Shown: positions 39,774-64,000 of the stretch, in pieces
Layout of the letters: each line of letters opens with the position of its first letter
Position numbering within the stretch: position 1 is the stretch's first letter
Assembly: GCA_010405405.1 (NCBI GenBank)
Contig: MU004236.1
Coordinates: 1,990,070 to 2,054,069, forward strand
Length of the DNA stretch: 64,000 nucleotides
Reading direction: 5' to 3'
From: Microthyrium microscopicum
Lineage: Eukaryota
The notes under the pieces: generated by a model
What the model was told of the DNA's origin: nothing
Databases searched by the model: none
What the model saw: only the letters and a program-made list of their open reading frames with translations
Position numbers and translations under genes: made by a program

Positions 39774-40270
39774 AGTTATATTTAACTTATTATAAAGATA
39801 TCGGATGCGTATAAGATAACTACGTACTTTATTAAAAATATTTTAAAAGTATTTAAAATATTTTAAACTTATTAGGTACATCGTAGTTATTTTAAACTTA
39901 TTATAAAAACATTAGATGCATATAAGATAATATATACTTTATTAGAAATATTATAAAACTATTTAAAATATTTTAAACTTATTAGGTACATTATAGTTAT
40001 TTAAAACTTATTATANNNNNNNNNNTATTAGGTACATTATAGTTATTTAAAACTTGTTATAAAAATATTAGATACGTATAAGATAATATATACTTTATTA
40101 GAAATATTATAAAACTATTTGAAATATTTTAAACTTATTAGGTATATTATAGTTATTTTAAACTTATTATAAAGACATTAAATGCGTATAAGATATTATA
40201 TACTTTATTAGAAATATTATAAAACTATTTAAAATATTTTAAACTTATTAGGTATATCGTAGTTATTTAA
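39774..40270. repeat. 110-bp tandem satellite, at least 4 copies, spanning a 10-N assembly gap (40016..40025)
   Basis: Anchor 'attaggta' at 39871 and 39981, and after the gap at 40027, 40137 and 40247 (period 110). Confidence 0.9.
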
Positions 40271-41182: not shown

Positions 41183-41400
41183 CTATGCATAATGCTTCTT
41201 ATTGTCGCAAAGCGCCACTATATCCGCTTTTATCCCACTAGTTTTTAGGACGTAGACCATAATAGTAACTGTCGCCCTAGCACCGTTGTTAATCGTGGTA
41301 TTACTAATGCTCGTACCTAGGACTTCTATCTCTAACTCTATTCTACGCTTTAAGGCACTACTTATCCTATATACTATATAATCCTCTATAATAAGGTCCT
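41183..41400 (+). pseudogene. Argonaute PIWI-domain fragment (QDE-2-like), RIP-mutated
   Basis: Direct translation LCIMLLIVAKRHYIRFYPTSF*DVDHNSNCRPSTVVNRGITNART*DFYL*LYSTL*GTTYPIYYIILYNKV matches the Ago consensus PRITLIIVGKRHHTRFYP..D..GN..PGTVVDRG.T....WDFFLQ.H..LQGTARP.HY.VL.DE. Confidence 0.92.
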
Positions 41401-41543
41401 ATATGCTCACTATATTAAGGGTAAGATATTACTCCTATTAAGCTATAAGTAGCCTAATTATTATTTTAATCGTATAGTGCTACTTATCTCTTTACGTAAC
41501 TAGCAAAGTTAGAGATTTATCTACTATTCCTAGTCTAATAGAG

Positions 41544-42962: not shown

Positions 42963-45900
42963 ATTATACGGTCCGTTAAGCTAGACTTAAGGGGCTTCTA
43001 GTAGCGTTCCTAACTTTAGCAGTTTATATACGTATTAGATTTAAAGTCTAAAGAATTCACTAAGTAGAATATATTTCTAACACGATCCTACTTAACGACA
43101 AGAAGAAATATTTAACATACTATAAGCCTCTATAAATGCCTTTAATAAGCCGTTAAACTAGGTAAGGATGCTTAAGTAATGTAGTAAAAAAAGAACTACC
43201 TTAAGCTCTATCTACGGATAGGTAGATTAAATACTTAGAGTAATAATAGTTATCTAGAGGTCATTACTACATATAAGAACGTCGTTTACTAGCAACCTCT
43301 ATTATATCTAGACATATCTAGCACCTAGATAAAATAGTAATAATATTAAGAGTAGGTAAGGTAACAGCATCTTTAGCAGTATATTAGTTAATTATAATAA
43401 TAAGAGTAATAATAAATAGTATATAAATTAAGCTAAAAGCAGCCTAGTTGTTATTTTAATCGTATAATACTACTTACTTCTTTGCGTAACTAGCAGAGTT
43501 AGAGATTTATCTACTATTCCTAGTTTAATAGAGGTACTATTATATAGCCGTTAAACTAGGTAAGGATACTTAAGCAATATAGTAGAGGTATTAAGCAAAT
43601 AAATGTTTCCTTAGTCGTTTTAGTAGCGTCCTATACGAGCTCTTCTTCTAAGACAACGAAAGGGGTTCCCTTATAATAAATATAGTTAAAGAACGCTGTG
43701 CAAAGCTAGGGTCGTATTTAAGAACTTAGTAGTTACTAAAGTAGTTATTAAGGAGTAATAATCTTTCCTTCCTAGTTAAGATAGCGCTATTCCTATATCT
43801 TACGCCCTACTAAGTGAGCAGTGTATTGCCTTTATAGTCAAATTAAGCGATTATGTTAATGAATGCGTCTATACTCCTAACTAGTTAAAGAAATAGCTAA
43901 GGACTACCTTAAGCTCTGTCTGTAGGTAGGTAGATTAAATGCTTAGAGTAATAATAGTCGTCTAGGGGTCGTTACTACGTATAGGAACGTTGCTTACTAG
44001 TAACCTTTATTATATTTAGATATATCTAGCACCTAAATAAAGTAGTAACGATGTTGAGAGTAGGCAAGGCAATAGTACCTTTAGCGGTATATTAGTTAAT
44101 TATAATAATAAGAGTAATAGTAAATAGTATATAAATTAAGCTAAAAGTAGCCTAATTATCATTTTAATTATATAGTACTACTTGCCCCTTTACGCAACTA
44201 GCGGAGTTAGAGATTTATCTACTATTCCTAGTCTAATGGAGGTACTATTACACAGCTATCAAACTAAATAAGGATACTTAAGCAATGCGGTAGAGGCATT
44301 AAGTAGGCAAATGTTTCCTTAGTCGTTTTAGTAGCGTCCTGTACGAGCTCTTCTTCTAAGATAACGAAAAGGGTTCCCTTATAATAGATATAGTCAAAGA
44401 ATACTGTACAAAGCTAAGGTCGTATTTAAGGACTTAGTAGTTACTAAAGTAGTTACTAAGAAGTAATAACCTTTCCTTCCTAGTTAAGATAGCGCTATTC
44501 CTATATTTTACGCCTTACTAAGCGAGCAGTACATCGCCTTTATAGTTGAATTAAGCGATTACGTTAATAAATACGTCTATACTTCTAACTAGTTAAAGAA
44601 GTAGCTAAGGACTACTTTAAGCTCTATCTATAGGTAGGTAGATTAGATACTTAGAGTAATAACAATCGTCTAAGAGTCGTTACTACGTATAAGAACGTCG
44701 CTTACTAGCAACCTCTATTATATCTAGATATATCTAACACCTAGATAAAGTAGTAACGATATTAAGAGCAGGTAAGGTAATAGTACCTTTAGTAGTATAT
44801 TAGTTAACTATAATAATAAGAGTAATAGTAAATAGACTAGATTTTTTTAAATGTTTCCTTAGATATTTTAGTAGCGTCCTATATAGGCTCTTCTTCTAGG
44901 ATAAAAAAAGGGGTTCCCTTATAATAGACGTAGTTAAAGAACGCCATGCAAAGCTAGGGTTAAGGGTTTAGCATCTTTATAATTCTCGTATTAGTAAGGA
45001 CTTAGCAATCTAATAAACATTATTGAGAAAAGTAGCTATCCTTAAGTTAATAAGAGCATACTAATTATTAAGGTAGGAAAGCCTATATCGTAATAATAGG
45101 TGTTTTCCTAATCTAAGGCTAATAAATAAATTAAGTAATAGAGAAGCTTCTATAAAGAAGAGTAGAACATCTAATAATATTAGAGTTATTAACCTACTAA
45201 CGTACTAAAAATAGTTTAATTATAGTACTATAAGAGATTCTTATAAGCTAGGTACTAGTTTTAGTAATAAAGTAATTAAAGAATTTTAAGACTTTAAAGC
45301 GTCTATTAGTAAGTAATGCTTCTAGAATATATATTAGCTAATTACTAACAAATTTCGTATACCTATAGGTTATACCTTCTAAGTTAAGAACTATAAAAAT
45401 TAGTTTATTAACTAAAGTAGTTAAAGAGTCTATATATTCTATACTCTTTACTACTAAATCTATCTCTTATTAACTTTGCTTTCCTTTTAAGTATTTAGCG
45501 TACGCTTTTATAAAGTTAAAGTACGAAACTAAGTAATCGCGTTAATAAATACGTCTATACTCCTAACTTATTAAAGAAGTAGCTAAGGATTACCTTAACT
45601 TCGTTTATAAGTAAGTAGATTAGATGCTTAGAGTAATTATTTATAGTGACGATAATTGCGTTTGCCTTAACTTTAATATAATTAAGATTATTCAAACACT
45701 AGACTTATTTTTAGTATCGTTGCCTAAAGCTTTAGCGACGAGATTATAGCCTTTAAATATTCCTATAGTAAGTATAATAGTTAGTACTTTAAAAGTTTAG
45801 GTAAGTAATGGCGAAGGACGACTTAGTAATTAGACGGCTTCCTAACGTCCTTAGCCTAACTAGCTTTTATAAGCGTGTAAAGAAATTATAGCTATTAAGT

Positions 45901-46015
45901 ATACTCTTAAGAATGAGAAAACAAGCTCCTACTAAAATATCTAAGCTCTTATTATAGATACGGCAAAGCTAAGATAGCTAATTATTAATAGATTACTAAA
46001 TAAGGATAATAATCT

Positions 46016-46737
46016 ATAGATAGTAGGTAGTTGTAGCTTATGCTAAATACGGAAACTTTATATTAGTTCCCTAAGTATAGGATTAGGATTAGGTAGTAAC
46101 TTCTTATTAAAGAAGCAGTTATTATTAACGTTAGCTAAGCTATATATACCCTTCGCTCGTATAACTACCTAGCTAGCTTTATTCTTTCGCTCTTTTAGAT
46201 AGGTTAGTTTTATGTAAATACGAAATAAGAACTAAGCTAATCCGTATATATTAACAGTACCGTAATTACCTTAATAGGATATTATAAGCTTAGGTAATAG
46301 CCTATTAGGGTAGAAAGCTGCTCTACTAACGTTAATATTAACTAATATATAGGAAATCGTAAGTTAAGTACTAGTATAGATAGTAAGTAGTTGTAGCTTA
46401 TACTAAATATAGAAACTTTACGTTAGTTCCCTAAGTATAAGATTAGGATTAGGTAATAACTTCTTATTAGAGGAGTAGCTATTATTAATGTTAGCTAAGC
46501 TATATATACCCTTTACTTATATAACTATCTAGCTAATTTTATTCTTTCGCTTTTTTAGATAGGTTAGTTTTACGCGAATATGAAATAAGAACTAAGCTAA
46601 TCTATATATATTAATAATACTATAATTACCCTAATAGGATATTATGAGCTTAAGTAGTAGCCTACTAAGATAGAAAGCTACCTTACTAACGTTAATATTA
46701 ACTAATATATAGGAAATTATAAGTTAAGTACTAGTGT
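46016..46737. repeat. 360-bp tandem duplication (2 copies) containing Argonaute L1-PAZ sequence
   Basis: 46021 'tagtaggtagttgtagctta' and 46381 'tagtaagtagttgtagctta' are colinear for 360 bp. Confidence 0.92.
46118..46375 (-). pseudogene. Argonaute L1/PAZ fragment, duplicated copy
   Basis: LVNINVSRAAFYPNRLLPKLIISY..YGLA*FLFRIYIKLTYLKERKNKAS*VVIRAKGIYSLANVN corresponds to ILVNVNVS.AAFY..GPL..LM..L..FL.R.RV..THLKE.KNKAG....R.K.I.GLA..ND. Confidence 0.85.
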
Positions 46738-46950
46738 AGTATCCTTAGAGAGCTAATAAGCTGCTATTAAGATAAAGCTATTATAGATTAGCTCTAATAA
46801 ATGGAAAGACTTTTCGTAGTCTAATTGTAGCTACGTTTGTATTAGATTAGTAAAAGTGGTTAAAGAATATATTAAGAGATTAAAAAAGGGTTAGCTAATT
46901 ATTATAGCTAGCGTTAGATGCTATCTTAATTAATATAAACTAAATAGCTA
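46478..46950 (-). pseudogene. Argonaute N/L1/PAZ fragment (~470 bp), RIP-mutated
   Basis: F*SLNIFFNHF..NVATIRLRKVFP..LNSSLLAL*GYYTST*LIISYILVNINVS corresponds to QALNIF.NH..ATIG..K.FP..LGGGL.ALRGY..S.RLAT.RILVNVNVS, and continues into the PAZ start. Confidence 0.88.
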
Positions 46951-48208
46951 CTAAGATATTTATTATAGGGAGTAGTAACTAAAGGTAATTTCTTAGCTCT
47001 TTATAACTTTACTATAATTTGCTAGCCTAATAAAGAATTCTTCTAAGATGAGCTATTTACTTTTCTTTTATAATATAATATAGAGTTAGTTAAATACTTT
47101 ACTTAGTTTACCTAGAAGAGATTATCTTATTAGTAAGTGCTTTCTAGTATTAAGAATCTATATTCTTAATTACTCTACTAAGTTAACTATAATCTAGGAA
47201 TAGTAAACTTACTTAATTAACTTCTAATCTAGGAAGGTATACTTAAAATGCCTCTTTCTATCTATTAGTAATAAATATATTACTAAATTATTTAATATCT
47301 ATAACTTTAATAGTATAAAAGTTATATAGCTATGCTAAATATCTATATATATATTATCTATATGCTATATATAACTAAAACTACTTATTAAGTATATATA
47401 GGTAAAAAATAGTACCTACTTATATAAAACTATATAGTTATTTCTATATCTTAATAAATATAAGCCTATAGAAAGCGGTCTTACTATATATAATAGTATA
47501 ATATTAATTAAATAGTAAATAGGATAGAGCTTTATAACTTTTTTATGCTCTTATAGTAAATAGGTATATAAATATATATAGTCTATTGCTAATTTAAAAA
47601 GATAAGAGTTACTTAGAACTTTATTTATTATGTTTATTATAAAGAAAGAGACTATAAAGTAAGTATACGTTTTACGTAATTAATTTAAAGAAACTAAGTA
47701 AGTATAGAAAATAGAGTAAAGAAGAGAAATAAGCTACCTACGCTTAGCTATTAATTTTTCTTATCTTCTATATAAAGAATGTCTATAATATAAAAAAATA
47801 GAGTTTCTTTTACTTTATATATAAGGTTTAAAGTCTTAAGTAGCTATAAGGAAATATACTTTTTTAAGTATAGTAGTGCTTTAGTATTGCGCTATATAAA
47901 AGCTATTAAAATAACTTTAATAAGCGCTTTCCTTATACTTAAGCTAAGTAGAAAGTAGAATAAAAAGAGAAAGAGGAGGTTAAATTAAGTTAAAGCTAAA
48001 GAAAAGATTTAGGAAGAGTACTATCTTAACTAAGAAGGAAAGGTTATTATGCCTTAGTAATTGCTTTAGTAACTACTAAATCTTTAGATATTTACTATTC
48101 TAATATAGTTAAAAATAATTTTTGCTTAGGGTTTATCTCCTTATTACTTTAACTTCTATATTCTTTAACTTAATAAGCCCTTTATGTCTTATTGTAGTAA
48201 TTATAGTA

Positions 48209-48785
48209 GCTATAGAGGTAAATTTTATGGTGGTTAAGGTGGAGGTAGGTTTAATAGAGAAGGAGGTGGTGGCTATAAAGGCGAATTCTATAGCGGTTAA
48301 GGCAGAGGTAGGTTTAATAGAGAAAGAGGTAGTAGCCATAGAGGTAAATTCTATAGTAGTTAAGGTGGAGGTAGGTTTAATAGAGAAGGAGGCAGTGGCT
48401 ATAGAGGCAAATTTTATGTTAATTGATGTGGAAATAGGTTTAATAGAGAAGGAGATAGTGGTCGTTATTATTATTAATTATACTTCTTCTAGTATCTGCT
48501 TAATAGCTTTAATAATAGCCTAGTTATATCTTTTATTTCTATCTTTTTTCTTCTTACTACTTCTAAACTCTAATATAACTCTACTACTTTACTTATAAAG
48601 CTAACTAAAATATTAGAGGTCTTAGGATATATAGAATATATAGTAGAGGCGAATTCTATAGTAGTTAAAGTGATAATAGAGAAGGAGGTAGTAGTAGTAA
48701 AGGTAAGTTCTATAGTAGTTAAGGTAGAGATATAGAAGGGCTAAGGTAGTAGCTATAGAGGTAACTTTTATAGTAGTAAAAGTAG
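48209..48785 (+). repeat. 63-bp tandem repeat (4 full copies plus later partial copies); RIP relic of an RGG/Gly-rich coding repeat
   Basis: Units start at 48209, 48272, 48335 and 48398. Reversing RIP gives GGC CGT GGA GGC GAA TTC CGT GGC GGT CGA GGC GGA GGT GGG TTT GAT GGA GAA GGA GGT GGT = GRGGEFRGGRGGGGFDGEGGG. Confidence 0.75.
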
Positions 48786-49713
48786 AGTAGTATATTAAGT
48801 ATTATTATAATATCTCTAACTTTTCCTTATATAAAGTAGACCTTATAGAGAATAAAGGATGCTAAGTAGTAAATACTTAAAGTACTTTTTTAGACGTTCC
48901 TAGACTTCTAAGGTGCTTTAAAAGCGCAAGTAAGGAAAGGTAATGTAGCTATATATAGTAGTAATAGCCTCTAGATATAGTGTTTTTTAGGGAAGCTAAG
49001 TAGTAGTAGCTTTCCTTTATAATAATATATATTAAGTTAAAAGTATTACTTCTATGCTAGATATAGTTCCTATGCTAATAAAGAAGTTTAGTAGTTTAAT
49101 ATTATTATAATTACTATCTTAGATAGGTTGGTTAGAATATAGGTAGTAAAGCTAGTTAAAGTTAGTTGTAAAGCCTTACTTAAGTATTTTAAAGAGTAAT
49201 AGTGTTGTTATTAACTTTATAAACTCTAACTTCATGTTTTGGTAGTATAGGTTTATTATAGGATAATATAAGCTAAATAAATAAGGTAAGCGCGTAATTG
49301 CTTTAGTTAAGGGCACTCTTTAGTGGTATATTAATTGTCTATAATAATAAGAGTAATAGTAAAGGACTAGTTTTTAGGCAGTAGGCTTAAGATGAGGGCA
49401 ATCTGTTTAGAAATAACTAAGACTAATAAGTGCGTAAATAATAGCGTAAGTAATGATAAATATTAAGGTAAAGTATAATAAGCGTTAAGTTAATCTCTAT
49501 CGCTATTAAGAATGGTTACGTATTTAAAATCCTCTTTAATATTCTGCTTAATAGTTTAAAAATAGTAGTCCTATTACTAGATACATAATTACCTACTTTA
49601 AGAACCTTATTTAGTATTTATAATTTTTTATAATATATATATCCTATTAGCGTATAACTAAAGTCTTAACCCTTATAATAAATAGCGAGCTACTCTTATA
49701 TAAATATTAAGAG

Positions 49714-49998
49714 GTAATAGTTACCTTTATAGCTAGCATCTTAGAGGCTAGTAAAATAGAAACTATAAGGGCATTTAGCTATAATAATAAGTGTTATACA
49801 TAGAAGGCTTATAGTAGTATTATTAATAGGATAGAGCCCTTTGTATAGTTTGTGGAGTTAAGGAAGTTTGGTATTAAGGGCTATTTCGTATTATTCTTCT
49901 AATATACTATCCTAGTAGGTAATAACGTTAGTAAGGTATCTTTTATGCTTAGAATACTAAAGTATAAGATATTGCTTAGATAGAGTAGTTAGCCTAGT
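49714..49998 (-). pseudogene. Argonaute PIWI fragment including the YRDGVSE catalytic-motif region, RIP-mutated
   Basis: LIL*YSKHKRYLTNVITY*DSILEE*YEIALNTKLP*LHKLYKGLYP..SLLCITLIIIAK corresponds to L.LW..KH..YP.N.I.YRDGVSE.QY..L..ELP.LRK.C..LYP..LPRITLIIV.KR. Confidence 0.88.
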
Positions 49999-50448
49999 TT
50001 TAATTTTATCCTTAACTTTAGAAATTGCTTTAGTAATATAGGTTCGTAATGAGAGTAACTACGTAGTAAGTATAAGATAAAGTAGATATAAGATAATAGT
50101 CGTTTATATACTAATCTATTTTATAAGTAAATATAGGTTTATATATACTTAAAAGTCTAAGAATGTCTATAAAGACTTAATTTAAACTACTAAAGCTGAC
50201 TTTAGTATGTTCTATAGTATAATAAGCTATAGTATAAATATATAACGTTCTGTAAATTAGATTTATAAAGTACATAGTAGTAGTGCTTATTATAATACTG
50301 CTAAGCTCCTAAATAATAGATAAAGATATTAGAGTAGTGACTTTAGAGTAAAATTCTGTTATTTATATAAATTACTATTATTACTAATAAGTCTTTTGCT
50401 TTTTATTTAATATGCCGTTTCTCTTCTATAAGATCTTATTAGAGAAAA

Positions 50449-50850
50449 TATTATATTAATACTGTTTTATTATTAATGTAATGCCGCCTTAAGTATTATA
50501 AGTTGTTGCTTAAACTCGTTTATAGAGGGGAAGGAATCTATACTTTAGTAATATGCTGCTACGCGTTATTATTATTATTGTTATTATATAATTAGTATAT
50601 ACTTGTAGTATAATGCTTATAAAAATATTATTAAAGTAATATAATAATGTTTACCTTAGTGCTAGCGCTGTAATTGCTCTTCTATAGTACTATCCTAAGG
50701 CCGTTCTGCTTTTATAGTAATTATATGTCGACTTTCTAAAAAATAATATTGCGTTAATGCTGTTTTATTGTTAATATAATGCCGCCTTAAGTTCTACAAA
50801 TCGTTGCTTAAACTTATTTAAAGATAGAGAGGAGCCTATACTTTAATAGT
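50449..50850. repeat. Diverged ~100-bp direct repeat (starting ~50449 and ~50748)
   Basis: '..ttaatactgttttattattaatgtaatgccgccttaagt..ttgcttaaact..ctatacttta' occurs twice, ~299 bp apart. Confidence 0.7.
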
Positions 50851-53748
50851 AGGAAATTAAGAAAGTTAGGAAGAGGGTCTAGCTTTAGCGCTTTAGCGCT
50901 CTAATATAGTATTAATAGACGTAAGCTAGAGTATATTAAATAAGGTATTAATAAGTCTAAAAATCTTAATAACCTTCTGCTTTAGTATATAGTTTAGCTT
51001 AATTTTAGTTGTAGGTTTATTACGTATTATAGCTACTATAAATAGCTACTTATTTAATTCGAATAATAGTAATAAGTGCCTAAATATAATATAGGATATA
51101 ATAGCTATAGGTATAAGTAAGAAGGAGTATAGTAAAGTATAAGGAACGTATTAAGAATATTAGCAGAAGATAAGGCGTATAAGAGTTAAGTTTAGTTTAA
51201 TGATAGTAATATTTTAGTAAGTTTTAGTTTAGTCGCGACTTTAGAGATATTCAGCCCTAAACCTATTAATAGTACTATTTAATATTCCTTTTTATTTAGC
51301 TGCTAAAAGCTTTTATAACATTATTATTAAGCTACTAAAGAATAATAACTTCTAAATCTTCTAAAAAAGCTCTTCTTATTAGCTACTAAAAACGAAAACT
51401 ATTTCTCTCTACGTTACTATTAATAAAAAGTCGTAATTAAGCTTATTACGTTAGTTTTATTACTTAAAGAATTAAACGCTTTTTAGTTAGTAACTATTAA
51501 GTTTACTACTAAGAACTAGCTTTATTATAATAAATTAGGCTACGAAAAATTCCTTACTTTATTTATAGCTTTAGGTCTTAATATTATAACGTGCAATAAA
51601 TGTTTCTATTAGATATATATTTAGTATAAGAAAGCTAAACATACTAGGTAAGGTGTTTAGTTATTATATCTTTTTAATAATATAATATAGAAAGATACTT
51701 AAACTTCTAAAATCTCCCATTCTTATTAATAGCTCCTATATCTTATTTTAGGATTACTCTAAATAATAGACACTATCTCTTTAACACGTGCTAAGATATT
51801 ACGATTCTAGACTAATAAGATATAATAACTATCTTAAAGATAAGGCTTTATAAGCTATACTTACACTAGCTACAGAGATAAATTAGTAGCATTGCAACGC
51901 TTATAAATTAATAATTAAACTAGATACTAGCTACTACTATATATAGTAAGCTATGCTTTTTAAGTTTTTGTCTTATATTAATATATTAAAAAATTAGTTA
52001 CAAATATAGTTAATTAGTTCTACTATATTTATAGCGTTAAGTAGAAGAAGTATTACTATCTATAGTAGAATAAGAATTAATTAGTTGCTAAAGCTAACGT
52101 AATTATTAATTAAGAGCTAGCTAGAAGATGACGAGTAGTACTAGTAGAGTAGGTTTAACGTATAAAAGAGGTAAGATAGGAGCTAATTAACTAATATTAA
52201 TATACTTATTTGCGATGACTTAAGAAGATTAGGCGTTAACGTCTAGAATGCACTATGCTAAAAAAAACCTAGCTTTATACCTACTAGGACGCGAAGAATA
52301 GATTTAAAAGCTCTAACTATAAAGTCTTACTTACTTAAAAATAGAGAAATTAAAGATACTTTAATAGGACTATGAATTCTATTAGGCTTATATTGAACTC
52401 TTACCCCTACTTTCCTTAAATAGTGTATTATCTATACCTATATCTCGTCCTTTCTCCCTATCTATTTAAAAAGAGATACTTTATATCTTTATATAATAAC
52501 TATCTCCTTATTACAAGCTTTACTGTTTATGGCTAAGAAGAGAAGATTTTTGCTATACTCTAACTAGACTATAATATAGTATACGTTATATAGATAGCTA
52601 TAGATTTAGCGCCCTATAAATATCTTAATATATATTAAAATACTACGCCTATATTTTCTCTTTCGTTATTAGTACTAGTATTAATAGCCTAACCGCTTTT
52701 AGAAAGACGCTAAGGCTCTACTTAAGAATCTAGTTTTTGCGTATTTATATAGTAACGACTTACTTATCTACTTCTAGGACTGTATCTTACTAAAGAGAGT
52801 CTAGTAATATAGTGTTTATAAGTTAGCTAATAGTCTGTTTAGTAGAATTAAGGTTTTACTAATAAGTAGTATAAGAGTCTAGGTAAACTTTATACTTAAG
52901 TTCAGTTTAATTAGTTTCTAAGGGAGATTCTGTGTCTAAGTCTAGGGCATTATTATTGTTCTCTTCTAGCTTAGGAATTAATTTAGCTAGCATAATAGCT
53001 TTAAGGAGTTAAGGAGTAGTTTAAGATTCTAGATATTCGTAATTTATATTTTTTAGATAGGAGCGTGCTTTAAATAAGGGTACTAAGAGAATTAAGTATA
53101 GTTTTTAGTTATCTTAAAGACTATAATATATAGTTTATAGTAGAATTAAATAAAAGATGCAATAGTATTATGATAAGTAGTAGTAAAGCTATTAATTAAC
53201 TAAGCAAGTTATTATGAATAAAGAAGGTTATTAGAAACTAAGATAATAAAGATATATAACGAAGGTAAATAGCTACTATTTTAATTATTACTATAAATAG
53301 TAGATAATTATTAGGTAACGTTTAGGTCTAGTAATTAGATAAGCTCTTTTTAAAAGCTTAAGGTAAAGTATAGAAAAGATATATATATTAGAAGTAAGAT
53401 AAAGAAGTAAAATAAGTTTAGATTACTATAAATACTAAAGAAAAAAGATTTAAAATTAATAACCTATTATTTTATTTGAAGAATTATGAATTAAAAGCTA
53501 TTAAAAAGAATGAATAATTTTACCTCTTATATATATACTATTCTACGTAAATATATATTCCTAAAGTTCTTAAGTTAATTTATTCTATCGTATTTTATAT
53601 TATACTAACTATTATATTTAAGTCTATAACTAATACTAACGAAACTAAATTACTTAAGAAATAATATTATAATAATAATAATAATACTTAGTAATCTATA
53701 AAATATACGACTCTTAGGTAATAAAACGTTTATTAGACCTTTATTTTA

Positions 53749-56700
53749 CTATATATCTTCGTTATTATTGCTATTATTTTCTTTGCTATTATTGCTAGTT
53801 TCTTCTTTGCTATTTTTGCTAGTCTCCTACTTACCTTCTCTACTACTATCTAGTTTATCTTCTCTATTTTTTACTTCTTTTCTATTACTACGTTTTATTC
53901 TCTTTGCCCTATTAGTAAGCTTCTTAAAATAAACTTTAATCTAGGCTTTATAAAGCTCTCTATTCTTTCTTTCTAGGGCCTTATGTCTTGTTATAGTTTT
54001 AGCCTTAGCTACCTTAATTCCTTATTTACTAAAGATAATTAGGTTATATATTCTAGTATAATTATTATAATTAGAGTATAAATTTAACTAATAATAATTA
54101 AGATACTTTAAGTCTCTATAAGAAACTATATATATAATAATTAATAGTTTGTTTAGTTTATATATTTTCAACTTTATAACTAGCTTAAATAATATAAGAC
54201 CTAATAGCCTATTAAACGTAAGTTTTATAGCTTTTCCTAAAATTAGTATATACTCTTAAACTAAAGCTATAAGAAATCTAGCGTATTTATGTTATAATTT
54301 AAAATCTCTTATTATTTAATTTATATTATATACTATATAAATAATAAGTAGTTATATAGGAAGTTAACCTAAAAGACTAAAATTATTATTAAGCTTTTTC
54401 TTAGATATGGGATAGGCTTAAGCCTATATAAAGTTACGTCGCTAGTAATTCTTAGTTAAGACTTTACTATACTATTAATTATTATCCTTACCTTTCTACT
54501 ATTCCTATTTATAGTAGGCTATAAAGGGTTACGTATTGTTCTTATTATTATCTATTACGTAGGTTATGCTACTATATAATATTATAATAAGGTAACTTAG
54601 CTAGAGAGCGTTAGGATATAATACTTTACTAGAGTATATAAAGTCTAGTCTGTCGTTAATAAAATCTTTATTTAAATATATTTCTTTACTCTATATATAT
54701 AATAGTATTAGCTTTAGAAAAGACTAGTGCTTCTTAAGGTCTTCTTTGTAGCAATTAATTAACTAGCTATATAAATAACTCTTAAGGTTGTTAAGCTTAG
54801 CCTATTTGCTAACATTCCTAGTAAAAAGTATACTAGATTTATAAATACCCTTATTATATAGCTCGTCTATATAATATAATTAGAGTTATAAACTATATTT
54901 AGGTATACTTAATAAAATAATTATAAGATAAGTTCTTTTAGATATAATCTTCTTCTTAGTAATATTATAGACTTAATAGTTATAGTTATTATTATTATTC
55001 TAGATTATATTCTTAATATGATTAGTAAGATAGTAGATTATTTAAACGTGCTAACTAAGTTAAAAGTTAGTCTATTTTGTTGCTAATATAGTATACTCCT
55101 AATATAACTTTTTTATAATATTAGAACTAGTTCTATCTATAGTGCTAAATATATGAATAGATAGTGCAAAGTAGATTAGGTTATAAAACTTAGGGAAATT
55201 AAGCCCTTTAAACCTAGCTTAAGAAGTCTTATATTTATATATTACTATTTTAGTGTATTCTATAATTTATAAATAGACTTATATATATTTAAGTATATTC
55301 TTATTATGTAACTTATAGCTAGAAAGTATAATAATATTTATTAAAGCTTTAATAAATTTTATTATAATTAGGTCCTTTGGGTTTAAAAGTAGAGCTAAGG
55401 TAGCTATAAGTTACTTTGAAAGTATTTATAATTCTAAGCTAGTCTTTTATTAAACGTTATAGTAGCCTTAGGCTATTCTTAGAAAGCCTAGATAAATAGG
55501 ACACTATAGAAACCTATAATTAATTATAGACTTTATTTTTACGCTAAATATAAACTTCTTTTTTTTCCTCTTCTATTTAGTCTTTAGTATATTGCTATTC
55601 TTCCTTTTAGTCTTTAGCGTCTTATAAGTATAAATTTTTTATATAGCTCTATTATTCTTTATTTTAGCTATTAGTACTATAGATATTACTAGTACTCTCT
55701 TTTCTAAAATAATTTAGGCTGTCTAGTCTATTGCTTACTTAACTAGTCTATTTAAAAAGAATATATATAGTAAATTAAAAGTAATTACTATGTGAATATT
55801 TAATAAAGAATAATTCTAAGTAAAATTATAAATTTTATAAACATAGTCTTTGCCTTTAGTATTATTAGTAGTAGTAAGCTACTTAGTATACTCTCTTTTT
55901 TAATTAGTGTAGCGAAGTACTTCCTACTTTAATATATTCTTTTACGAAGTTATATAAGTCTGATAGGCCTATTTGCTAGTAAGGTCTTACTAATATAATT
56001 ATAGTACTAAGTAAATAGGATAGTAATGTTTAGACTAGATACTTGTAATTATAATAAGCTCTTTATAATCCGTACTTACGTAAGTAAGAATTAGAAGATA
56101 TCTTTAAAACTAGCTATTAGTAGTTACTATAACGTAATTACTCTTAGGGACTATTCTAAATTCTATATTTTATTAGTAAATAGCTTTATAATACTTAAAC
56201 GCGTAGTATTAAACTTTTAAATATAATATCTATAGCGTTATAAAATATTTTAAGTTTGTTATTAACGTTTATACCTTTTAACCTAAGGAATACTATAATA
56301 GAAAGAAATCCTAGTCTTTCTATAGCTCTTCTAATACTTCCTAATAGATTAAAAATAGTTATATAGTAAGCCTATATATAGTTGTTACTATGTTATTTAG
56401 ATATTGTAGTCTTATCTAACCCCTAGTAAATAAGGATAAGCATAATACCTAAATTAACCTTATCTTATAATTCTTACTATCTTTCTACTAATTAAGTATT
56501 AGTATAGATATGCTTACTATCTTTATCCTTTTATATTATAGGCTTAAAGTAGAGGTCTTTAGTAAAAGGCTTATAGAAGATAAAGAATTTAATAACCTCT
56601 AAGATACTCTAAAAGTATACTTTGACTTTACTACCTAAAAGATTTTTAATACTTTTTATTTTATTATATAATAGCCTCTTAAGTATTACTTTCTACTAAT

Positions 56701-57700
56701 TAAGTATAAAGCCTTTAAGGTTATTAATATTTTCTATTAGTAATTTGTAATCCTTTGCTTTCTAACTAAGTAAGTTATGTATTTTACTCCTAAAGACTAT
56801 TTCCTAGAATAACTTGTTTACTTTATTCTTTAACGTACTACTAGAAACTACCTAACTAGTAAACTTTAGTTCTTTCTTTAGTTAACTCTATAGCTTTACT
56901 CCTCTATAGAGCTTTTCTTTCTTTAAATAATAATATTAGTACTCTATCTTAATAATATCTTAGGGTAGTAGCTTATACTTATTAATCTAATTGTAGCTTT
57001 CGTTAGTTCTATAGGCTAGTATAGGTATATTTATTAGATATTTTAGATTTTATTATAAGTATATAATAACTTTATTAACTATATATTATATACTACTCTT
57101 AGACTTTTAAGACTTATTAGCCTTATCTATCCTATTTTATAAACTATATTTATACTATATTAAAGTAGTAACTCTTTTTGTAGCTTTAAGGGTAGCTAAA
57201 GATAAAGGTATAGTAAAAAGTGTAATTATTTTATCTTTTATTATAGACGTTTTAGACGTAGTATAGTTATAACTAGGATAAGTAGTAGATCTTATACTAG
57301 TAGAGGGACTATTTATAAAGAGTTCTTTTATTAGAGTTTCTATTACTAGTATTAACCTTTATACTTAATTAAAAGGCCTTTAGAGGCGATTATAAAGGTT
57401 TGCGGTAAAGAGGAACTATATACCATTTAGAAGACTTAATATACCTATATTTAAGAAGATTAGTTTATAAGAATAGTAATATAACTTATTTAGGTTAAAT
57501 ATATACTAGGGGACTAAAACGTATAAGTTAGATAGGTCTATATTTAATTGCCTTTCTTTATTATTATACGCAATACTAGAAGAGTTATACTAGTATATTA
57601 ACTTCTATATCTATTTTATCCTTATTAACTTTTAAAGATATAGGTATATTTTTAGTATATAAGTAGTAAATCTAGTATTAAATTTATACTAGTAATAATT
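53749..57700 (-). mobile_element. Plavaka-type DNA transposase, RIP-inactivated (5' boundary approximate)
   Basis: Reconstruction at ~56280-56640 gives VYFRSILEVIEFFIFHKPF.EDLYFEP..DEDGERIYT....RW.ELQDKV..G..LIPIYWGSDKT.MS.QHGD..AW..YMTIFNL...RRA.ERPG, matching the Plavaka core (Y.D...FL..H.PF..DL...P...G.R.Y..WW..Q...P....SDKT.....GD..AWP.Y.TIGN). C-terminal WRRDF.W.Q motif (~54420) and acidic tail ending at 53749. Confidence 0.82.
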
Positions 57701-60536
57701 AGCGTTTGATTTTACTTAGTATTCTAAGGCTTAAGTAGTAGAGTTAATTTCTAAGAATATTACCTAATAATATTTTATTATATATATAATATACCTTTAC
57801 TTACTAGATATTTCTAAACGTGCTAGATATTTTTAGATATTTTAGATAGCTAGTACTAAGACTAAGTAAGAATACTAGCTAATCTTATATAACTAATAAA
57901 TTATAATATTATACTAGAGATATATTATATAACTTTATATTATTAATTACTAGCTTAGTAAGTTAACTTTTCTAGTAATAGTACTATTCTATCTACCTTT
58001 TTAGTCTAACTCCCTTATATATCCTTTTTTATTAAATTTTTCTACCTATATAATCTCTTTATTCTAAACCTTTTTTCTATTTAGTACTAACTATTATACT
58101 ATCTAAGTTAGTTAATTAATTAGCTAAATGAACTTTACTTTAAACTTAAACCTTCTTACTATCCTTTTCCTTATTACTATTTCTTACTACTAATCTTTAC
58201 TAACTTTACCTTCTTTATTAGCTTTATTAGCTTTAAATTCTTTATTCTTAGGTTTAAAACTATAAAGTAAGGTTAGTTCTATAAGATCTCTAATTACTTC
58301 TAGTTCTTTAAGTATAATAGTTTTAATCTTTTTATGTATATTTAGCTCTTTCTTGTGATAAGAAATTACTCTATTAAAGTTAAGAATATTAAGTTTCTCT
58401 AAATTTTAATAAGAGTAATTATTAATAAATAGTATATACTATATATAGCTATTATTAATAAAATATTTTAGCAATCTACTAAGTATAGATTATTTGAACT
58501 CTTCCTATCTCTTAGCACTAGGGGCTATTATAGTACTATAAAGCTTTAAGTTACTAAAGAATAAGGATAAGTAGCCTTAAGATACTATAGTATTTATTTA
58601 TAGGTTTTCTATAAAGAAACTAGTGTAATCTTTTTGAACGAGATTAATAAGATTCTAATTACGCTTAGTACTAAAGCTGTTGTCGTAGGTAGTTATTAGA
58701 ACCTAGCTAAATTACGAAGGTATATCTTAATAGTCTTACTAGGTATACGTATAATTATCCTAAATATACGTAGTAACTTATTTAAGTAGCTAATCTTTAG
58801 TTTTAGTATAGAGGCTAATTTGCGTAAGGTAAGGAGTAATAACTATAGTATTAACGCTTTTTAATTGTATCTATAGTAGAAGTTTAATCTATATAAAGGC
58901 TATAATATAAGCGTTATGAGTATTAGAACTTAAACTAATGACGTCCTTTTTAACTTTACTATCTTTAATATTTATAAATATTGTGAGTAGCGTGTCTTTT
59001 CTGTGTTCTAAGAATAGGAAGAGCTAGCTTATAATATATTATAGTTAGTTAAATTTAAGGTTATTATTGTTAATATATTTAAGAATTTTATAGCTTATGT
59101 TATTAAGGAAATTATAGTGTGATAAATTAAATCTAAATACCCGTTTTAGTATAGTTTAGCTAAAGCTATTTACTATAGCGTTATATATTAATAGTGCTTA
59201 AGAACTGTTACGAAATGTAGCTTTTTTATATTTAAGATTATAGATAGGTCTAAGCTAGAATAGATCTCTAGTCTATATAATTATTTAAGGTCTATATAGA
59301 GATATAATAGCTATTATCTATAATCTATATAATGCTACTATTTTATTATAAATTTATAAGTTAATACCTATAAAATTTGCTTAGAAAAGCTCTTATAGGG
59401 CGTTATAGTTTATAAAACTAAGAAGAGTGATTATTAATTATAAATAATATTACTTTATATCTAATAATAGTTTGCTATAATTAGCGCTCTCTAACTTTAA
59501 GAGCTTCTTCTCGCTATAATACTTTTCATTAAGAATTTAGAGGTTAAAAGTATAATTAAGCGACTTTTTAATAACTATATCTATATCGTATTTTTGCTTT
59601 CCTATTACTAAGTTAATTATGCTAATTATCTTACTAGCTTAATCTATGAATTCCCTAAATGAGTATTTAAAACGTTTAATATAACGATTATGGATACTTT
59701 TAAAGTCTTAATGTTTAGTATTTATGTGGAGTTACTATAAATAGTAAGCACTATGCTATTTAGTAAGTAATACTATTTTAGTATCTAAAATATTAGTGCT
59801 GTAGTTATCTATGTCGTCTATGTTCTACTATTGCGTACTAGGACCTTAATTTTAGTAGACTTAGATTTGTGCCTCTTTTGATTTCTTTAAAACAATAGAT
59901 TTCTCTATCTTAATTAAGTATCCTTAGATAGCAAAAAATTGTAAAAGGTTCATAGGATTAACTTCTATGTAGATATTTATATACTTAGTAATAAGGTTAT
60001 TTAATTATGTGTTTATAGTATATGTAGCCAAAATCTTTATCTTAAAATTAAGATAAAATATTATAAGGGCGATTAATATTGCTATTATAGCTTTTATAGT
60101 TTTAGTCTTGCCGTATTCTAGCCTAATATAGTAAATATTAAGTCTACCCTTACTGCCTTTTAAAAGAACAATATTAATGAACTCTTTTTGATCCTTATAA
60201 AGAGCCTTTATAATACTAATCTATTCTACCTTTTTTATAAGATTTTGAATCTCTTTTAAGGTAATTCTAAAGTTAGTCTTTAGTAATTATGTAGAAGTAG
60301 CTATACCTAGTCCTATAAAAGTACTTAGTAACTAGTACTAATTATTATTAATATTAGTATTATTAATATTAGTAGTATTATTATTATTATTATTATTATT
60401 AATATTACTATTATTAGTATTATTAGTATTTTTTATAGGCGTAATCTTGTTGTCTAACTATTTATTAGAATTAAAAATATCTTTAGGTATATCTTTATAG
60501 GTATTATTATTATTATTATTATCGTTATTAGCGTCG

Positions 60537-60640
60537 TTAGCTATATTTAATTACTAACCCTATTTATTATTAGCTACTTTTAATTACTAACTCTATTCGT
60601 TATTAGCTACTTTTAATTACTAACCCTATTCGCTATTAGC
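60537..60640. repeat. 33-bp tandem repeat x3 within the helicase gene
   Basis: 'ttagctacttttaattactaaccctattcgtta' three times; length is a multiple of 3. Confidence 0.75.
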
Positions 60641-60689
60641 TTTAGTAACCTTTAGCTTAGTCTATTAATCCTAAGCTTAAGACTCTGTG

Positions 60690-61095
60690 GAGGGGGAGGT
60701 GCTATTATTAGTAGAATAGAGGGGCGCTGCTGTAGTAGTATTTAGGGATTCTATATTAACGTTGTCTTAGACGGAGGGGGAGGAAGGACGAAAGGTATTG
60801 TTATTAGTAGAATAGAGAGGCGCCGCTGTAGTAGTATCTAGGGATTCTATATTAATGTTATCTTAAATAGAGGGGGAGGAAGGATAAGAAGTATTATCGT
60901 TATTAAGATAGAGGGGCGCCGCTATAGTAGTATCTAGGAATTCTATATTAACGTTGTCTTAGATGGAGGGGCGGGGAGGCTAAGAGGTGCTATTATTAGT
61001 AGAATAGAGGGGCGCTGCTATAGTAGTATCTAGAGATTCTATATTAATATTGTCTTGGACGGAGGGGAAGGGAGAACGAGAAATACTATTATTAT
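60690..61095 (-). repeat. 96-bp (32-codon) Pro/Thr/Asp-rich tandem repeat x4 within the helicase gene
   Basis: Anchor 'ggcgc' at 60723, 60819, 60915 and 61011. Minus-strand unit reads approximately PPPSVQDNVN.ESLDTTTAAPL.STNNSTFRP. Confidence 0.85.
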
Positions 61096-64000
61096 TAGCT
61101 TTAAATTCCTATTTAAACTAAGATTTAGTTATATAGTTAGATAAATCTAGATTAAGTAGCTTATTAATTAGCTTTTATAAAGTAGAACTACTGCTTATTT
61201 TCTTTAAAGTTTCTTTAGTCTAACTAGTTAAAGGTTTTAACGTGTTATTCTTAATATTACTAGAGAATAAGCTACTTAATAGAGTATCCTTTTATACCTT
61301 ATTAACCTTTATAGTTAACTTTTTTAGTGTATTAGTATCTATTAATACTTCTTTAGTACGCTTTAATATAATACTAAACTCTACCTTTCTAAGGAGTAAG
61401 GGTAAGGTATAGATAGTAAGAATCTTCTCTAATAAAGGCTAATGTTCTAAGAAGTCTAGGTATAAGCTAAGTACTATAGTAAAGTAGTAATCTAGGTTAT
61501 ATTCTTTTTGTCTTAACTACGCTTAGTTAAGATTATTTATTTAGCATATAATAGGCTTATCTAAATTATATATATATACCTTAACCTCTAGCCCTTTTAG
61601 TTTAAGGAAGGCCTTGCGTAGATTCTTAATTAATTAGCTATAGTCTAGGGGAATAATAACTTCTTTAAGGATTTAGAATAAAGAGAATTAAGTATTATTA
61701 GTATATTTATTATTAGGTATAATAGAAGGATGATATATAATTATAAGCACGTTATAGGTAGCTTAAATATTATAGTTTTGGTTAATAACTTTAGTAGTAA
61801 ATTAAGAACCCTTAAGTCTAGCTCCTAGCTTAAGTTAGATTATATAGACGTTATTCTCTTAAAAATAAGGATATTTATGTCTATTTACTATAATATAGAA
61901 ATTAAGGCTTACTAGGAATTTATAGTCTTTACCTTCTAGTATTCTAGTAGCACATAATATAGTATTATAGGGAGCCTTATTCTATTTATACGCCTAATAA
62001 AGCTATTCTGCTAGATCTATACTCTAGGCTATAAATAGATGTAGGACTAAAGGATAGACTATGTGTAACAAACTCGTAATTCTGTTATTCTTTGCTTTTA
62101 TAAGATTATTATAATTATCTAGAAAAGTAATATAATCCTTCTATGGGCTAAAGACGCTATTTATAAATAGATAATTAATATTAGTAGGAATAATATCTAG
62201 ATTAGTTTATGTGCCTTAAGAGATTAGCTAAGGAAGATTCTTTTTTATAAGTATAGCTAAGCTGGCATTAACCTTAAAGAACTAGAAGACTATGGGGTAC
62301 TAATTCTAAATAGTATATTAGAGATAGTGGAGAAGTAGATTAAATTTAGTATCCTTGCTGCTAACTATTAAATTGCTAATTATAGTAGAGTAGACTTAAA
62401 AAAAGTTGTTTAATAGGTTAGGGTATATCTTAATAATAAGTATAGTTATATAGCCTATAGCTAATATACTTCTATAATATTTAATGTCTTAATTAATCTT
62501 GTAAGCTAACTAGACGAGTTACTTTTCTAAGATAACTGTAGGAAACTTAATAACTATTTAGTCTATCTTTTTCTTCTTTATAATTAGATTATTTAGTAAG
62601 AAATAAATGGTTTTAACTATTAGAGTTATAATATTTTCTTATATATTATTTTTGTTTTTATTAACTTTAAAAGTATTTCTCTTGTCTTTAAGATATAGGT
62701 AAATAGTTAAGGTTAATATAAACTAAGTAACTTATTTATTATTCTTTATTATAGAGAATTGTGTTTTAATATTAGAAACTATAGCCTATTAATGCTTCTT
62801 TTTTAATCTACGTATATATTTAGGCTTACTAATAGTATTATCTTAATTAACTTTATTATTAATGCTATTACCTAAGTATTAATTTGCTTTATTAATTAGA
62901 TTATCTCTACTAAGAGCTACCTTTAGACCTTTCTTTAGTATATCTTCTAGATAAGGCTTATCTAAATATACTTATAAGCTATAAATTTGCTAGATTAAAG
63001 GCTTGCCGTTAGATAGATTTACTATAAGATTGTAGATAGTGTATTAAGGATTCTTAGGATCTATTTAAGATATTAGTATAAGGGTATATTTAGAGGCTTT
63101 TAAACTATTCTAGACTTTTGCTTTACCTTTGTTCTTAGTTTTAGGATTTTATTTACTTAAGTCTAAGAATATAGGTAAAGGATCCTTTTTAGCTAGGTAG
63201 GCAAAAATAGCTATAGAATCTAGTTTATATAAGTAATTAGCTAAGGATAAGGGAACGAATTTCTTTAAACTTATATTTTAATAACCTTAGAATTATTTAG
63301 CTTACTATCCTTATAAGGAGCGCAAGTTTTACGCTAATTAGGAAGAAGTTTTAGGATTATAATAGCTAGATGGCTAAAGATCTTAGTAGGAATTTCGTCT
63401 TTACCTATATCTTAGCTATAGATTTAGCTATTATAATTATATACTAATTGTTAAGTACGTAAAGTATTATAAGTAGCTATACTTATGATAAGTAGAGTAA
63501 GAATTAAGGAAGAGATAGAAAATATAAAGGATTTAGGTAGTGTTTTCTTTAAGGAAGGAGAAGTATTAAGAAGAGAAGATAAATAATAATAATAAAAGTA
63601 ATAACTTACTTACTATACTAAAGCCTAAAGGCGTAACTACTAAAAGTTAGCTATTTAGCCTAAACTTTAGGTTACTAAGCTATACTATCTATAAAAGAAT
63701 AAACTTAAGGAATTATTTAAAAGGACTTATTTAATTCTTATAATTACGAAAGATAGTAAGAAAGAGAGGTAATAATAAGAAAGAGGTTATAAGAATAAAA
63801 TAAAGAATTGCTCTCTCTACTAGAAACGCGACTAGAAGTTTATCTATTAATAGAGTTATTATAAAGCTATGCTATTCTGTATATAATAACTAAGTATAAG
63901 ATAGATTTAAAAGAACTTATTTAATCTAGTAATTATAGAATAGTAGTAAGAGAATAATAGTAAGAGAGATTTAGTAATAAGAAGATAGAAATATTCCTTC

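What the first reader, a model, noticed from the sequence alone, without database searches (positions are those of the whole stretch)
53749..63450. Plavaka transposase directly preceded by a co-oriented large Upf1-like SF1 helicase: possible undescribed large DNA transposon architecture
Seen: both genes are on the minus strand, within roughly 0.5-1 kb of each other, and equally RIP-mutated, so they were probably part of one repeated unit. Established: Plavaka elements are fungal DNA transposons that can carry accessory genes. Upf1-family helicases include RNA-silencing and NMD factors (SAD-3/Hrr1, MOV10/SDE3). The motifs here are Upf1-type (GDxxQLxP, ITPY.AQ, NxxxSRxR) rather than Helitron Pif1-type. 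Inference: the element encodes its own RNA/DNA helicase, possibly interacting with host silencing. I do not know of this pairing being described, but cannot search.
Basis: partly seen in the sequence, partly recalled or inferred. Interest (0 to 1): 0.75.

Follow-up and report, generated by a model that had tools for sequence, protein, structure and literature searches.

The report
Dead helicase plus Plavaka transposase relics
Two neighbouring, same-strand gene wrecks in a mutation-riddled repeat block of a fungal-type genome are a large Upf1-like helicase and a Plavaka cut-and-paste transposase; they may be two genes of one undescribed kind of transposon, but this single dead copy cannot prove it.

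Summary
Window 21-64 kb is AT-rich DNA with strong RIP signatures. On the minus strand, a Plavaka transposase relic passes Pfam's own cut-off (E 1.4e-9). About 0.5 kb upstream lies a roughly 1,700-codon former reading frame. Its core aligns collinearly, motifs I to VI, with an Upf1-like (AAA_11/AAA_12) helicase profile once C>T and G>A damage is modelled: 46.5 bits against at most 34 in 422 null sequences, and first of 414 windows. Standard tools barely see the helicase (AAA_12 E 0.08). Pif1 and UvrD profiles score at noise level and a RecD-like profile is marginal.

Contigs of four runs of one sample show that both relics and the gap between them are multi-copy. The copies differ almost only by transitions, so the helicase is not a single-copy host gene hit by RIP leakage.

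Whether helicase and transposase form one mobile unit stays open. No second copy lies in the window, no termini or target duplications were found, no whole genome is held, and every search for intact relatives failed. One of those searches failed through my own frame error. My literature searches found no Plavaka-helicase pairing; helicase-bearing DDE transposons are known (AcademH, KolobokH). I put the composite-element reading at about 0.45. Interest is moderate.

The parts
58235..63400 (-). Former reading frame of a large helicase gene: about 1,722 codons with 122 stop codons. The start cannot be placed, because RIP turns ATG into ATA.
   Evidence: Stop density is 7.1 per 100 codons in minus frame 0 against 11.1 and 17.1 in the other two frames.
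58576..60121 (-). Upf1-like SF1B helicase core, motifs I to VI, RIP-damaged (40 stops in 515 codons).
   Evidence: RIP-aware alignment to the AAA_11/AAA_12 profile A1 scores 46.5 bits with collinear motifs. Nulls and P values are, and the region ranks 1 of 414 windows. Of 49 aligned conserved columns, 34 are RIP-compatible and 18 identical. Pfam AAA_12 E 0.078. hhalign E 0.12.
60694..61098 (-). Tandem repeat of about 96 bases (32 codons, about 4 copies) inside the helicase frame, upstream of the core.
   Evidence: blastn self-matches at 81-87% identity, a purine/pyrimidine self-match at offset 288, and the repeated peptide visible in the translation.
57701..58234 (.). Gap between the two former reading frames (about 0.5 kb), also multi-copy.
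   Evidence: 13.5 stops per 100 codons in frame 0. Variant letters carried by 2-8 contigs per run (X2-X4) at 57708-58134 (table 3).
56200..57700 (-). Plavaka transposase relic, first part (minus frame 0). The Pfam match lies at 56210-56644.
   Evidence: PF18759 E 1.4e-9, 38.1 bits, above the cut-off of 26.3. 7.0 stops per 100 codons.
53750..56196 (-). Probable continuation of the transposase frame after a shift to minus frame 1 (an intron or an indel near 55.8-56.1 kb). No domain was detected here.
   Evidence: 7.4 stops per 100 codons in frame 1 against 17.8 and 11.0 in the others. Pfam found nothing in this frame. This part is inferred from stop density only.

Best explanation
This is a RIP-inactivated copy of a repeated DNA element that carried two co-oriented genes. 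The first was a large (about 1,700-codon) Upf1-like SF1B helicase with a long N-terminal extension. The second, about 0.5 kb downstream, was a Plavaka-type DDE transposase of about 1,300 codons.

The most likely reading is that the two were genes of one composite cut-and-paste transposon of the Plavaka lineage. The transposase would do excision and integration. The helicase would be an accessory or captured gene, perhaps helping to unwind or repair DNA at the transposon ends, as is assumed for the helicases of AcademH and KolobokH.

Shown: the identity of both relics, their layout, their equal RIP damage and their multi-copy state. Inferred: that they form one mobile unit, and any role of the helicase. 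The family is dead in this copy, with about 7 stops per 100 codons in each frame.
For: - Plavaka passes the Pfam cut-off.
- The helicase is supported by RIP-aware profile alignment at P of about 1e-4 and ranks first of 414 windows.
- The two relics share a strand, lie about 0.5 kb apart and have the same stop density of 7.0-7.4 per 100 codons.
- RIP state is homogeneous along the region, with 1-5 CpA per kb across 53-64 kb.
- The DNA is multi-copy. 2434-2526 contig pieces per run (X2-X4) were laid on 48-64 kb at 80% likeness or more, and only 452-500 of them are 99% alike or more. In X2 the differing places are 2311 transitions against 16 transversions.
- Diverged contigs are listed over the transposase part (57181-57479), the helicase N-terminal part (62170-62507, 62795-63283) and upstream of it (63583-63858). 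Variant letters occur in the gap, 57708-58134.
- No loose end between 56526 and 58641 is among the best-supported ones shown (table 7). This is weak, because 438 rows were not shown.
- From recall, no transposon class is known to carry an Upf1-like helicase by itself. A repeated helicase gene therefore needs a mobilising enzyme, and the nearest one is this transposase.
Against: - Only one copy could be read, and AT-rich RIP blocks are graveyards where unrelated repeats abut.
- Co-orientation has a 1 in 2 chance.
- The flank 48-53 kb is multi-copy as well, so being multi-copy does not delimit a unit.
- No terminal inverted repeat was found. The best purine/pyrimidine match between the two end zones is 29 bases of low-complexity sequence, against a control maximum of 27. 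The published Plavaka termini (TGT..ACA or CATCA..TGATG; PMC12730594) are too short to recognise after RIP.
- The upstream end may lie beyond the window.
- All four runs are one sample, possibly the one the window was assembled from.
- Described Plavaka families carry a transposase with or without a TET/JBP gene; the passages of PMC12730594 that my term searches returned mention no helicase in them.
Confidence: 0.45

Rival explanations
1. Chance neighbours. A Plavaka transposon relic and an unrelated helicase-bearing repeat, or a repeated pseudogene, came to lie side by side through nested or adjacent insertions in a repeat-rich, RIP-degraded block.
For: The whole 21-64 kb is RIP-degraded repeat DNA holding several unrelated tandem arrays and relics. 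No shared termini were found. No copy with the same pairing could be read. Described Plavaka families have no helicase in the passages of PMC12730594 that my term searches returned.
Against: The end of one element and the start of the other would both have to fit into about 0.5 kb. Strand, stop density and RIP state are the same on both sides. From recall, no known transposon class would explain a repeated Upf1-like helicase on its own.
Confidence: 0.3
2. Both relics are passengers of a much larger repeated unit of 15 kb or more. This could be a giant cargo-carrying element or a segmental duplication that was later RIPed. In that case the helicase may be a duplicated host gene and the Plavaka copy an insertion in it.
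For: The flank 48-53 kb is multi-copy with similar numbers of variant contigs. RIP state is uniform over 46-64 kb. An Argonaute-linker relic, which is a host-type gene, lies on the same strand at 46.3-46.8 kb. The better-supported loose ends of diverged contigs lie at 49318 and 63950, not next to the two genes (table 7).
Against: No recombinase or other transposase relic was seen in the six-frame Pfam scan of 45-54 kb (0 of 18 pieces). No inverted repeat was found at 49318/63950.
Confidence: 0.2

Closest known systems
Plavaka DNA transposons (PF18759; PlavakaA and PlavakaB of the CMCT clade; PMC12730594, passages read. Iyer et al. 2014 is cited there but not held.)
   Same: The transposase domain matches the Plavaka profile above Pfam's cut-off. 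The host is a fungal-type eukaryote, and this is a cut-and-paste DDE element that can carry a second gene (TET/JBP in some PlavakaB families).
   Different: The neighbouring gene here is an Upf1-like helicase, not TET/JBP. The host genome shows heavy RIP, whereas the described families come from Agaricomycotina. Termini and target duplication are unknown.
AcademH and KolobokH, helicase-encoding DDE transposons (PMC10799480 and PMC10045372, passages read; Kojima 2020 not held)
   Same: A cut-and-paste transposase plus a separate helicase gene in one element. These occur in fungi.
   Different: The transposase superfamilies differ (Academ, Kolobok). Their helicases are SF2 (DEAD/Helicase_C, per PMC10799480), whereas this one is SF1B Upf1-like.
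Helitrons (Rep HUH nuclease fused to a Pif1-type SF1B helicase)
   Same: A transposon-borne SF1B helicase in a long protein with an N-terminal extension.
   Different: A Pif1 profile scores at noise level here (24.2 bits, P 0.06-0.2). No Helitron_like_N or Rep match appeared in any Pfam scan of the frame. A DDE transposase lies alongside.
Cellular Upf1-like helicases (UPF1/NAM7, SMUBP-2, SEN1, DNA2, ZNFX1, Aquarius; MOV10/SDE3 and SAD-3 from recall)
   Same: The profile that fits the relic best is the one that finds these proteins in the PDB. The relic has the same motif order, with long inserts between motifs Ia-II and II-III.
   Different: This copy is multi-copy, RIP-killed and next to a transposase. 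Its subfamily could not be placed because no eukaryotic reference sequences could be fetched.

Membership tests
Plavaka transposase (PF18759) | Match to the family profile above the curated cut-off. | tested here: met
   38.1 bits against a cut-off of 26.3, E 1.4e-9, profile positions 38-195 of 325.
Plavaka transposase (PF18759) | [quoted passage not shown] | tested here: inconclusive
   The second half of the domain (profile positions 196-325) was not detected in any frame. RIP alters Cys, His, Asp and Glu codons.
Plavaka transposase (PF18759) | Termini TGT..ACA with 2 bp target duplication (PlavakaA), or CATCA..TGATG with 2-3 bp (PlavakaB). | tested here: inconclusive
   No significant inverted repeat was found in purine/pyrimidine-collapsed searches. 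The motifs are too short after RIP, and the upstream end may lie beyond base 64000.
Upf1-like SF1B helicases (AAA_11 PF13086 + AAA_12 PF13087) | Match to the Pfam profiles above their cut-offs. | tested here: not met
   AAA_12 scores 13.0 bits against a cut-off of 27 (E 0.078), and AAA_11 is not reported. This is expected for a frame with 7.8 stops per 100 codons.
Upf1-like SF1B helicases (AAA_11 PF13086 + AAA_12 PF13087) | Helicase motifs I, Ia, II, III, IV, V and VI in order, beyond chance. | tested here: met
   RIP-aware alignment to profile A1 scores 46.5 bits (all 45 of 45 A1 members are AAA_11 + AAA_12). None of 222 AT-rich windows and none of 200 shuffles reach that score. 34 of 49 aligned conserved columns are RIP-compatible, against a maximum of 32 in 80 shuffles aligned the same way.
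Upf1-like SF1B helicases (AAA_11 PF13086 + AAA_12 PF13087) | Better fit than other SF1 families. | tested here: met
   A1 46.5 bits (P 1e-4 to 3e-4); RecD-like 39.3 (P about 0.03); Pif1 24.2 (P 0.06-0.2); UvrD 23.1 (P 0.14-0.33). Caveat: the profiles are all prokaryotic and of unequal depth and diversity.
Helitron | Rep/HUH nuclease domain joined to a Pif1-type helicase. | tested here: not met
   No Helitron_like_N or PIF1 match at E up to 10 in the frame. The Pif1 profile scores at noise level. RIP could hide a Rep domain.
AcademH / KolobokH | Academ or Kolobok transposase with an SF2 (DEAD/Helicase_C) helicase. | tested here: not met
   The transposase matches Plavaka and the helicase fits an SF1B profile. 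The resemblance is in architecture only.
RIP-affected repeat | TpA/ApT above 0.89, (CpA+TpG)/(ApC+GpT) below 1.03 (thresholds recalled), and copies that differ by transitions. | tested here: met
   The indices are 1.44-1.83 per kb window and 0.20-0.27 per 4 kb block over 52-64 kb. In X2, 2311 places show transitions and 16 show transversions.

The most novel reading that the evidence does not exclude
This would be a so far undescribed lineage of Plavaka (CMCT-clade) cut-and-paste transposons whose first gene is a roughly 1,700-codon Upf1-like SF1B helicase. It would be a third, independent recruitment of a helicase by DDE transposons after AcademH and KolobokH, and the first with an SF1B RNA/DNA helicase of the type that cells use in RNA surveillance and silencing. 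A bolder and much less likely extension is that the unit was larger and also carried the Argonaute-like gene whose relic lies at 46.3-46.8 kb, making it a transposon with its own RNA-silencing-type genes.
Probability: 0.4. Interest if true: 0.6.

Novelty: new variant of a known kind. Interest (0 to 1): 0.35.

Why it matters
If the pairing is real, it adds a new accessory-gene type to a poorly known transposon superfamily. It would also give a second, independent example class for asking why some cut-and-paste elements need their own helicase: end processing, repair of the donor site, or interference with host RNA-based defence. It would extend Plavaka into genomes with strong RIP.

There is also a practical point. 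Standard profile and word-based searches fail almost completely on DNA this heavily RIPed. A simple codon-level model of C>T and G>A damage recovered the helicase. Repeat annotation of such genomes may therefore be missing whole gene classes.

If the two relics are only neighbours, the finding is ordinary repeat debris.

Tried and rejected
1. Whole genome: none is held.

2. Word-seeded protein searches, all three used:
- Helicase core: no hit at E 0.01 or better.
- Plavaka region: no hit at E 0.01 or better.
- A 104-residue motif V-VI stretch of the helicase frame: no hit at E 10 or better.
RIP destroys the exact 5-residue words, so these results say nothing about whether relatives exist.

3. 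Exhaustive HMMER search. It returned 0 hits. It works only as an accidental null, and the real query was never run.

5. Metagenome scans with both relics: patterns matched, but none was confirmed by tblastn.

6. Earlier notes of this scan: nothing on this genome. The other Plavaka notes concern Naegleria and do not bear on this finding.

7. Second copy or inverted repeats in the window:
- blastn and purine/pyrimidine-collapsed word matching found no second copy.
- The inverted matches are at chance length.
- The end-zone scan gave 29 bases of low-complexity sequence against a control maximum of 27. I rejected it.

8. Three contig joints that skip 7.6-8.3 kb (54100>61696, 50141>57764, 48819>57080) could have been internal-deletion derivatives. 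Each rests on only 21-22 letters, and these fall in very AT-rich sequence. I rejected them as unreliable.

9. Summed contig depth along the stretch is not a copy number and I did not use it.

10. Loose ends at 49318 and 63950 as unit ends: no inverted repeat was found there.

11. I left out a collection scan with a transition-tolerant (R/Y) pattern derived from the window, because it would have meant typing a changed sequence.

12. Papers: Iyer 2014 and Kojima 2020 are not held. I did not open the supplements of PMC12730594, which hold the Plavaka consensus sequences. They might show longer families with extra genes.
Full report
**Setting.** The window splits at about 21 kb. Bases 1-20 kb have 46-51% GC and ordinary eukaryotic genes (RabGAP-TBC, an RSE1/DDB1/CPSF1-type propeller, PPR repeats). 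Bases 21-64 kb have 20-30% GC. RIP indices are extreme in 24-64 kb: TpA/ApT 1.62-1.81 and (CpA+TpG)/(ApC+GpT) 0.02-0.31, against 0.59-0.75 and 1.23-1.37 in the genic part. In 53749-63450 only 26 CpA remain, against 834 CpT. No ORF of 60 aa or more survives in 52-64 kb. No whole genome is held for this window.

**The transposase.** I read stops as X and scanned the minus strand against Pfam. This gives Plavaka (PF18759) at E 1.4e-9, 38.1 bits, above the cut-off of 26.3, covering profile positions 38-195 of 325 at window 56210-56644. Stop density marks the former reading frame. Minus frame 0 from 57700 to 56200 has 7.0 stops per 100 codons. Minus frame 1 from 56196 to 53750 has 7.4, against 17.8 and 11.0 in the other two frames. 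The frame change near 55.8-56.1 kb may be an intron or an indel. The second half of the Pfam domain was not detected in any frame.

**The helicase, by standard tools.**
- Minus frame 0 from 63400 to 58235 is 1722 codons with 7.1 stops per 100, against 11.1 and 17.1 in the other frames.
- Pfam reports only AAA_12, at E 0.078-0.086 and 13 bits, below the cut-off of 27.
- phmmer against the PDB finds nothing relevant.
- hhalign against my helicase alignment gives E 0.12. It does align RD..*L.P and L..VFRFN to the GD..QLP and L..qYRMH blocks.

**The helicase, with RIP modelled.**
- *Profile.* I fetched 120 prokaryotic loci with a short recalled motif V pattern and cut 52 ORF pieces that also have a Walker A motif. 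I aligned 45 of them as A1; the seven left out were the six longest pieces and the shortest one. All 45 of 45 carry AAA_11 and AAA_12. As a profile, A1 finds SMUBP-2, UPF1/NAM7, DNA2, SEN1, ZNFX1, Aquarius and nsp13 in the PDB.
- *Scoring.* In a script, each observed codon was scored against each profile column. I summed over the ancestral codons that C>T and G>A changes can turn into the observed codon (mutation probability 0.6), relative to a RIPed random protein, and ran a local affine-gap alignment.
- *Gap settings.* With the first settings the helicase frame scored 42.8 bits against 15.7-18.8 for the other five frames, but the C-terminal motifs were misaligned. I lowered the penalty for skipping profile columns once and recomputed every null with the new settings.
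- *Result.* The score is 46.5 bits, with motifs I, Ia, II, III, IV, PY..Q, V and VI in order. The other frames score 16.0-20.8.
- *Nulls.* 222 windows from six frames of 21-58 kb have mean 19.8, sd 3.5 and maximum 34.1. 200 codon shuffles have mean 21.8 and maximum 33.6. Gumbel P is 6e-5 and 3e-4, and is similar with mutation probability 0.4 or 0.75.
- *Rank.* In a scan of the whole window the region ranks first of 414 windows, and second place is an overlapping window.
- *Conserved columns.* Of 49 aligned strongly conserved columns, 18 are identical to the consensus residue and 34 are reachable from it by RIP. Shuffles aligned the same way give 17.9 ± 6.3 with a maximum of 32, so 0 of 80 reach 34.
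- *Caveats.* The scoring scheme is my own. The profile is prokaryotic. Motif V is invariant in A1 by the way the sequences were found.

**Which helicase family.** I built profiles the same way from loci found by the genome search: 21 Pif1, 21 RecD-like (AAA_30) and 25 UvrD sequences.

| Profile | Score (bits) | P |
|---|---|---|
| A1 (Upf1-like) | 46.5 | 1e-4 to 3e-4 |
| RecD-like | 39.3 | about 0.03 |
| Pif1 | 24.2 | 0.06-0.2 |
| UvrD | 23.1 | 0.14-0.33 |

The Upf1-like reading is therefore the best of the four. The Helitron-type (Pif1) reading is not supported. The margin over the RecD-like profile partly reflects a generic SF1 signal and unequal profile quality.

**Is it repeated DNA?** Within the window there is no second copy, by blastn or by purine/pyrimidine-collapsed word matching, which is blind to RIP.

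Four public runs of one sample hold the stretch. That sample may be the one the window was assembled from. Laying their contigs on 48000-64000 at 80% likeness or more placed 382, 2448, 2526 and 2434 pieces. In runs X2-X4 only 452-500 of these are 99% alike or more. In X2 the differing places are 2311 transitions against 16 transversions.

The diverged contigs listed by the tool cover:
- 57181-57479 (34 of 299 letters differ);
- 62170-62507;
- 62795-63283 (46 of 489 differ);
- 63583-63858.

Variant letters carried by 2-8 contigs per run (X2-X4) occur inside the gap, at 57708-58134. So both relics and the spacer are parts of RIP-diverged repeats. The idea of a single-copy host helicase hit by RIP leakage is rejected. 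The 48-53 kb flank is equally multi-copy, however, so this does not delimit a unit. The contigs are far too short to link the two genes.

**One unit or two?** Several points favour one unit:
- the same strand and a 0.5 kb spacer;
- identical stop density;
- uniform RIP state, with 1-5 CpA per kb over 53-64 kb;
- no well-supported loose end of diverged contigs in the spacer (438 rows not shown);
- from recall, no known transposon class that would carry an Upf1-like helicase by itself.

Other points go against it or leave it open:
- Unrelated relics commonly abut in such blocks.
- No termini or target duplications could be found.
- The upstream end may lie beyond base 64000.
- No intact relative was obtained by any route.
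- The one exhaustive search was lost to my frame error.
- Three contig joints skipping 7.6-8.3 kb would fit deletion derivatives, but each rests on 21-22 letters in very AT-rich sequence, and I reject them.

**Literature.** Full-text searches were run for:
- Plavaka with helicase;
- Plavaka with Ascomycota;
- Plavaka with Kyakuja and Zisupton;
- DNA transposons that encode a helicase in fungi;
- AcademH with helicase and transposase;
- transposon with Upf1-like helicase in fungi;
- CACTA/EnSpm with helicase.

None found a description of this pairing. A search for AAA_12 matched unrelated text.

PMC12730594 (passages read) defines PlavakaA (TGT..ACA, 2 bp duplication) and PlavakaB (CATCA..TGATG, 2-3 bp). 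It reports TET/JBP as a second gene in some families, all from Agaricomycotina, and it uses the word helicase once, for Helitrons. PMC10799480 and PMC10045372 (passages read) establish AcademH and KolobokH as DDE transposons with helicase genes, of DEAD/Helicase_C type. PMC13519894 (passages read) extends Plavaka to algae without mentioning a helicase in those passages. Iyer 2014 and Kojima 2020 are not held. I did not open the supplements of PMC12730594.

**Verdict.** My odds are:
- composite Plavaka-type element with a helicase gene: about 0.45;
- chance neighbours: about 0.3;
- parts of a larger repeated unit: about 0.2.

If the composite is real, it is a new variant of a known kind, not a new kind. 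The copy is long dead, so everything about function is inference.

Noticed in passing
window 46310-46765, minus strand: A RIP-degraded Argonaute relic. Pfam ArgoL1 (PF08699) matches at E 1.9e-7, 31 bits, above the cut-off of 22, in two stretches, because it lies inside a 360-base tandem duplication (46015-46739). It is on the same strand as the helicase and the transposase, about 7 kb downstream. No PAZ, Mid or Piwi match was found.
   Followed up: partly
window 40765-45640: Tandem array with a period of about 636-708 bases, several copies at 85-94% identity, inside the AT-rich block. A run of 10 N lies at 40016-40025.
   Followed up: no
window 48200-48500, plus strand: Glycine/arginine-rich (RGG-like) tandem repeat readable on the plus strand, with strong G over C skew (0.33 in 48-50 kb). 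Contigs of the runs show repeat-number variants here.
   Followed up: no
window 53749-63450: Strand asymmetry of the residual RIP targets: 26 CpA against 176 TpG. CpA on the plus strand is nearly exhausted, while its complement is less so.
   Followed up: no
window 57928-58406: At several places (for example 58071, 58366, 58406) every contig laid in one or more runs carries C where the window has T. The window's own version of these letters is not represented in those runs' contigs (table 3).
   Followed up: no
window 30686-30954 and 39197-39465: A 269-base direct repeat at 89% identity, 8.5 kb apart, possibly the two ends of another degraded element.
   Followed up: no
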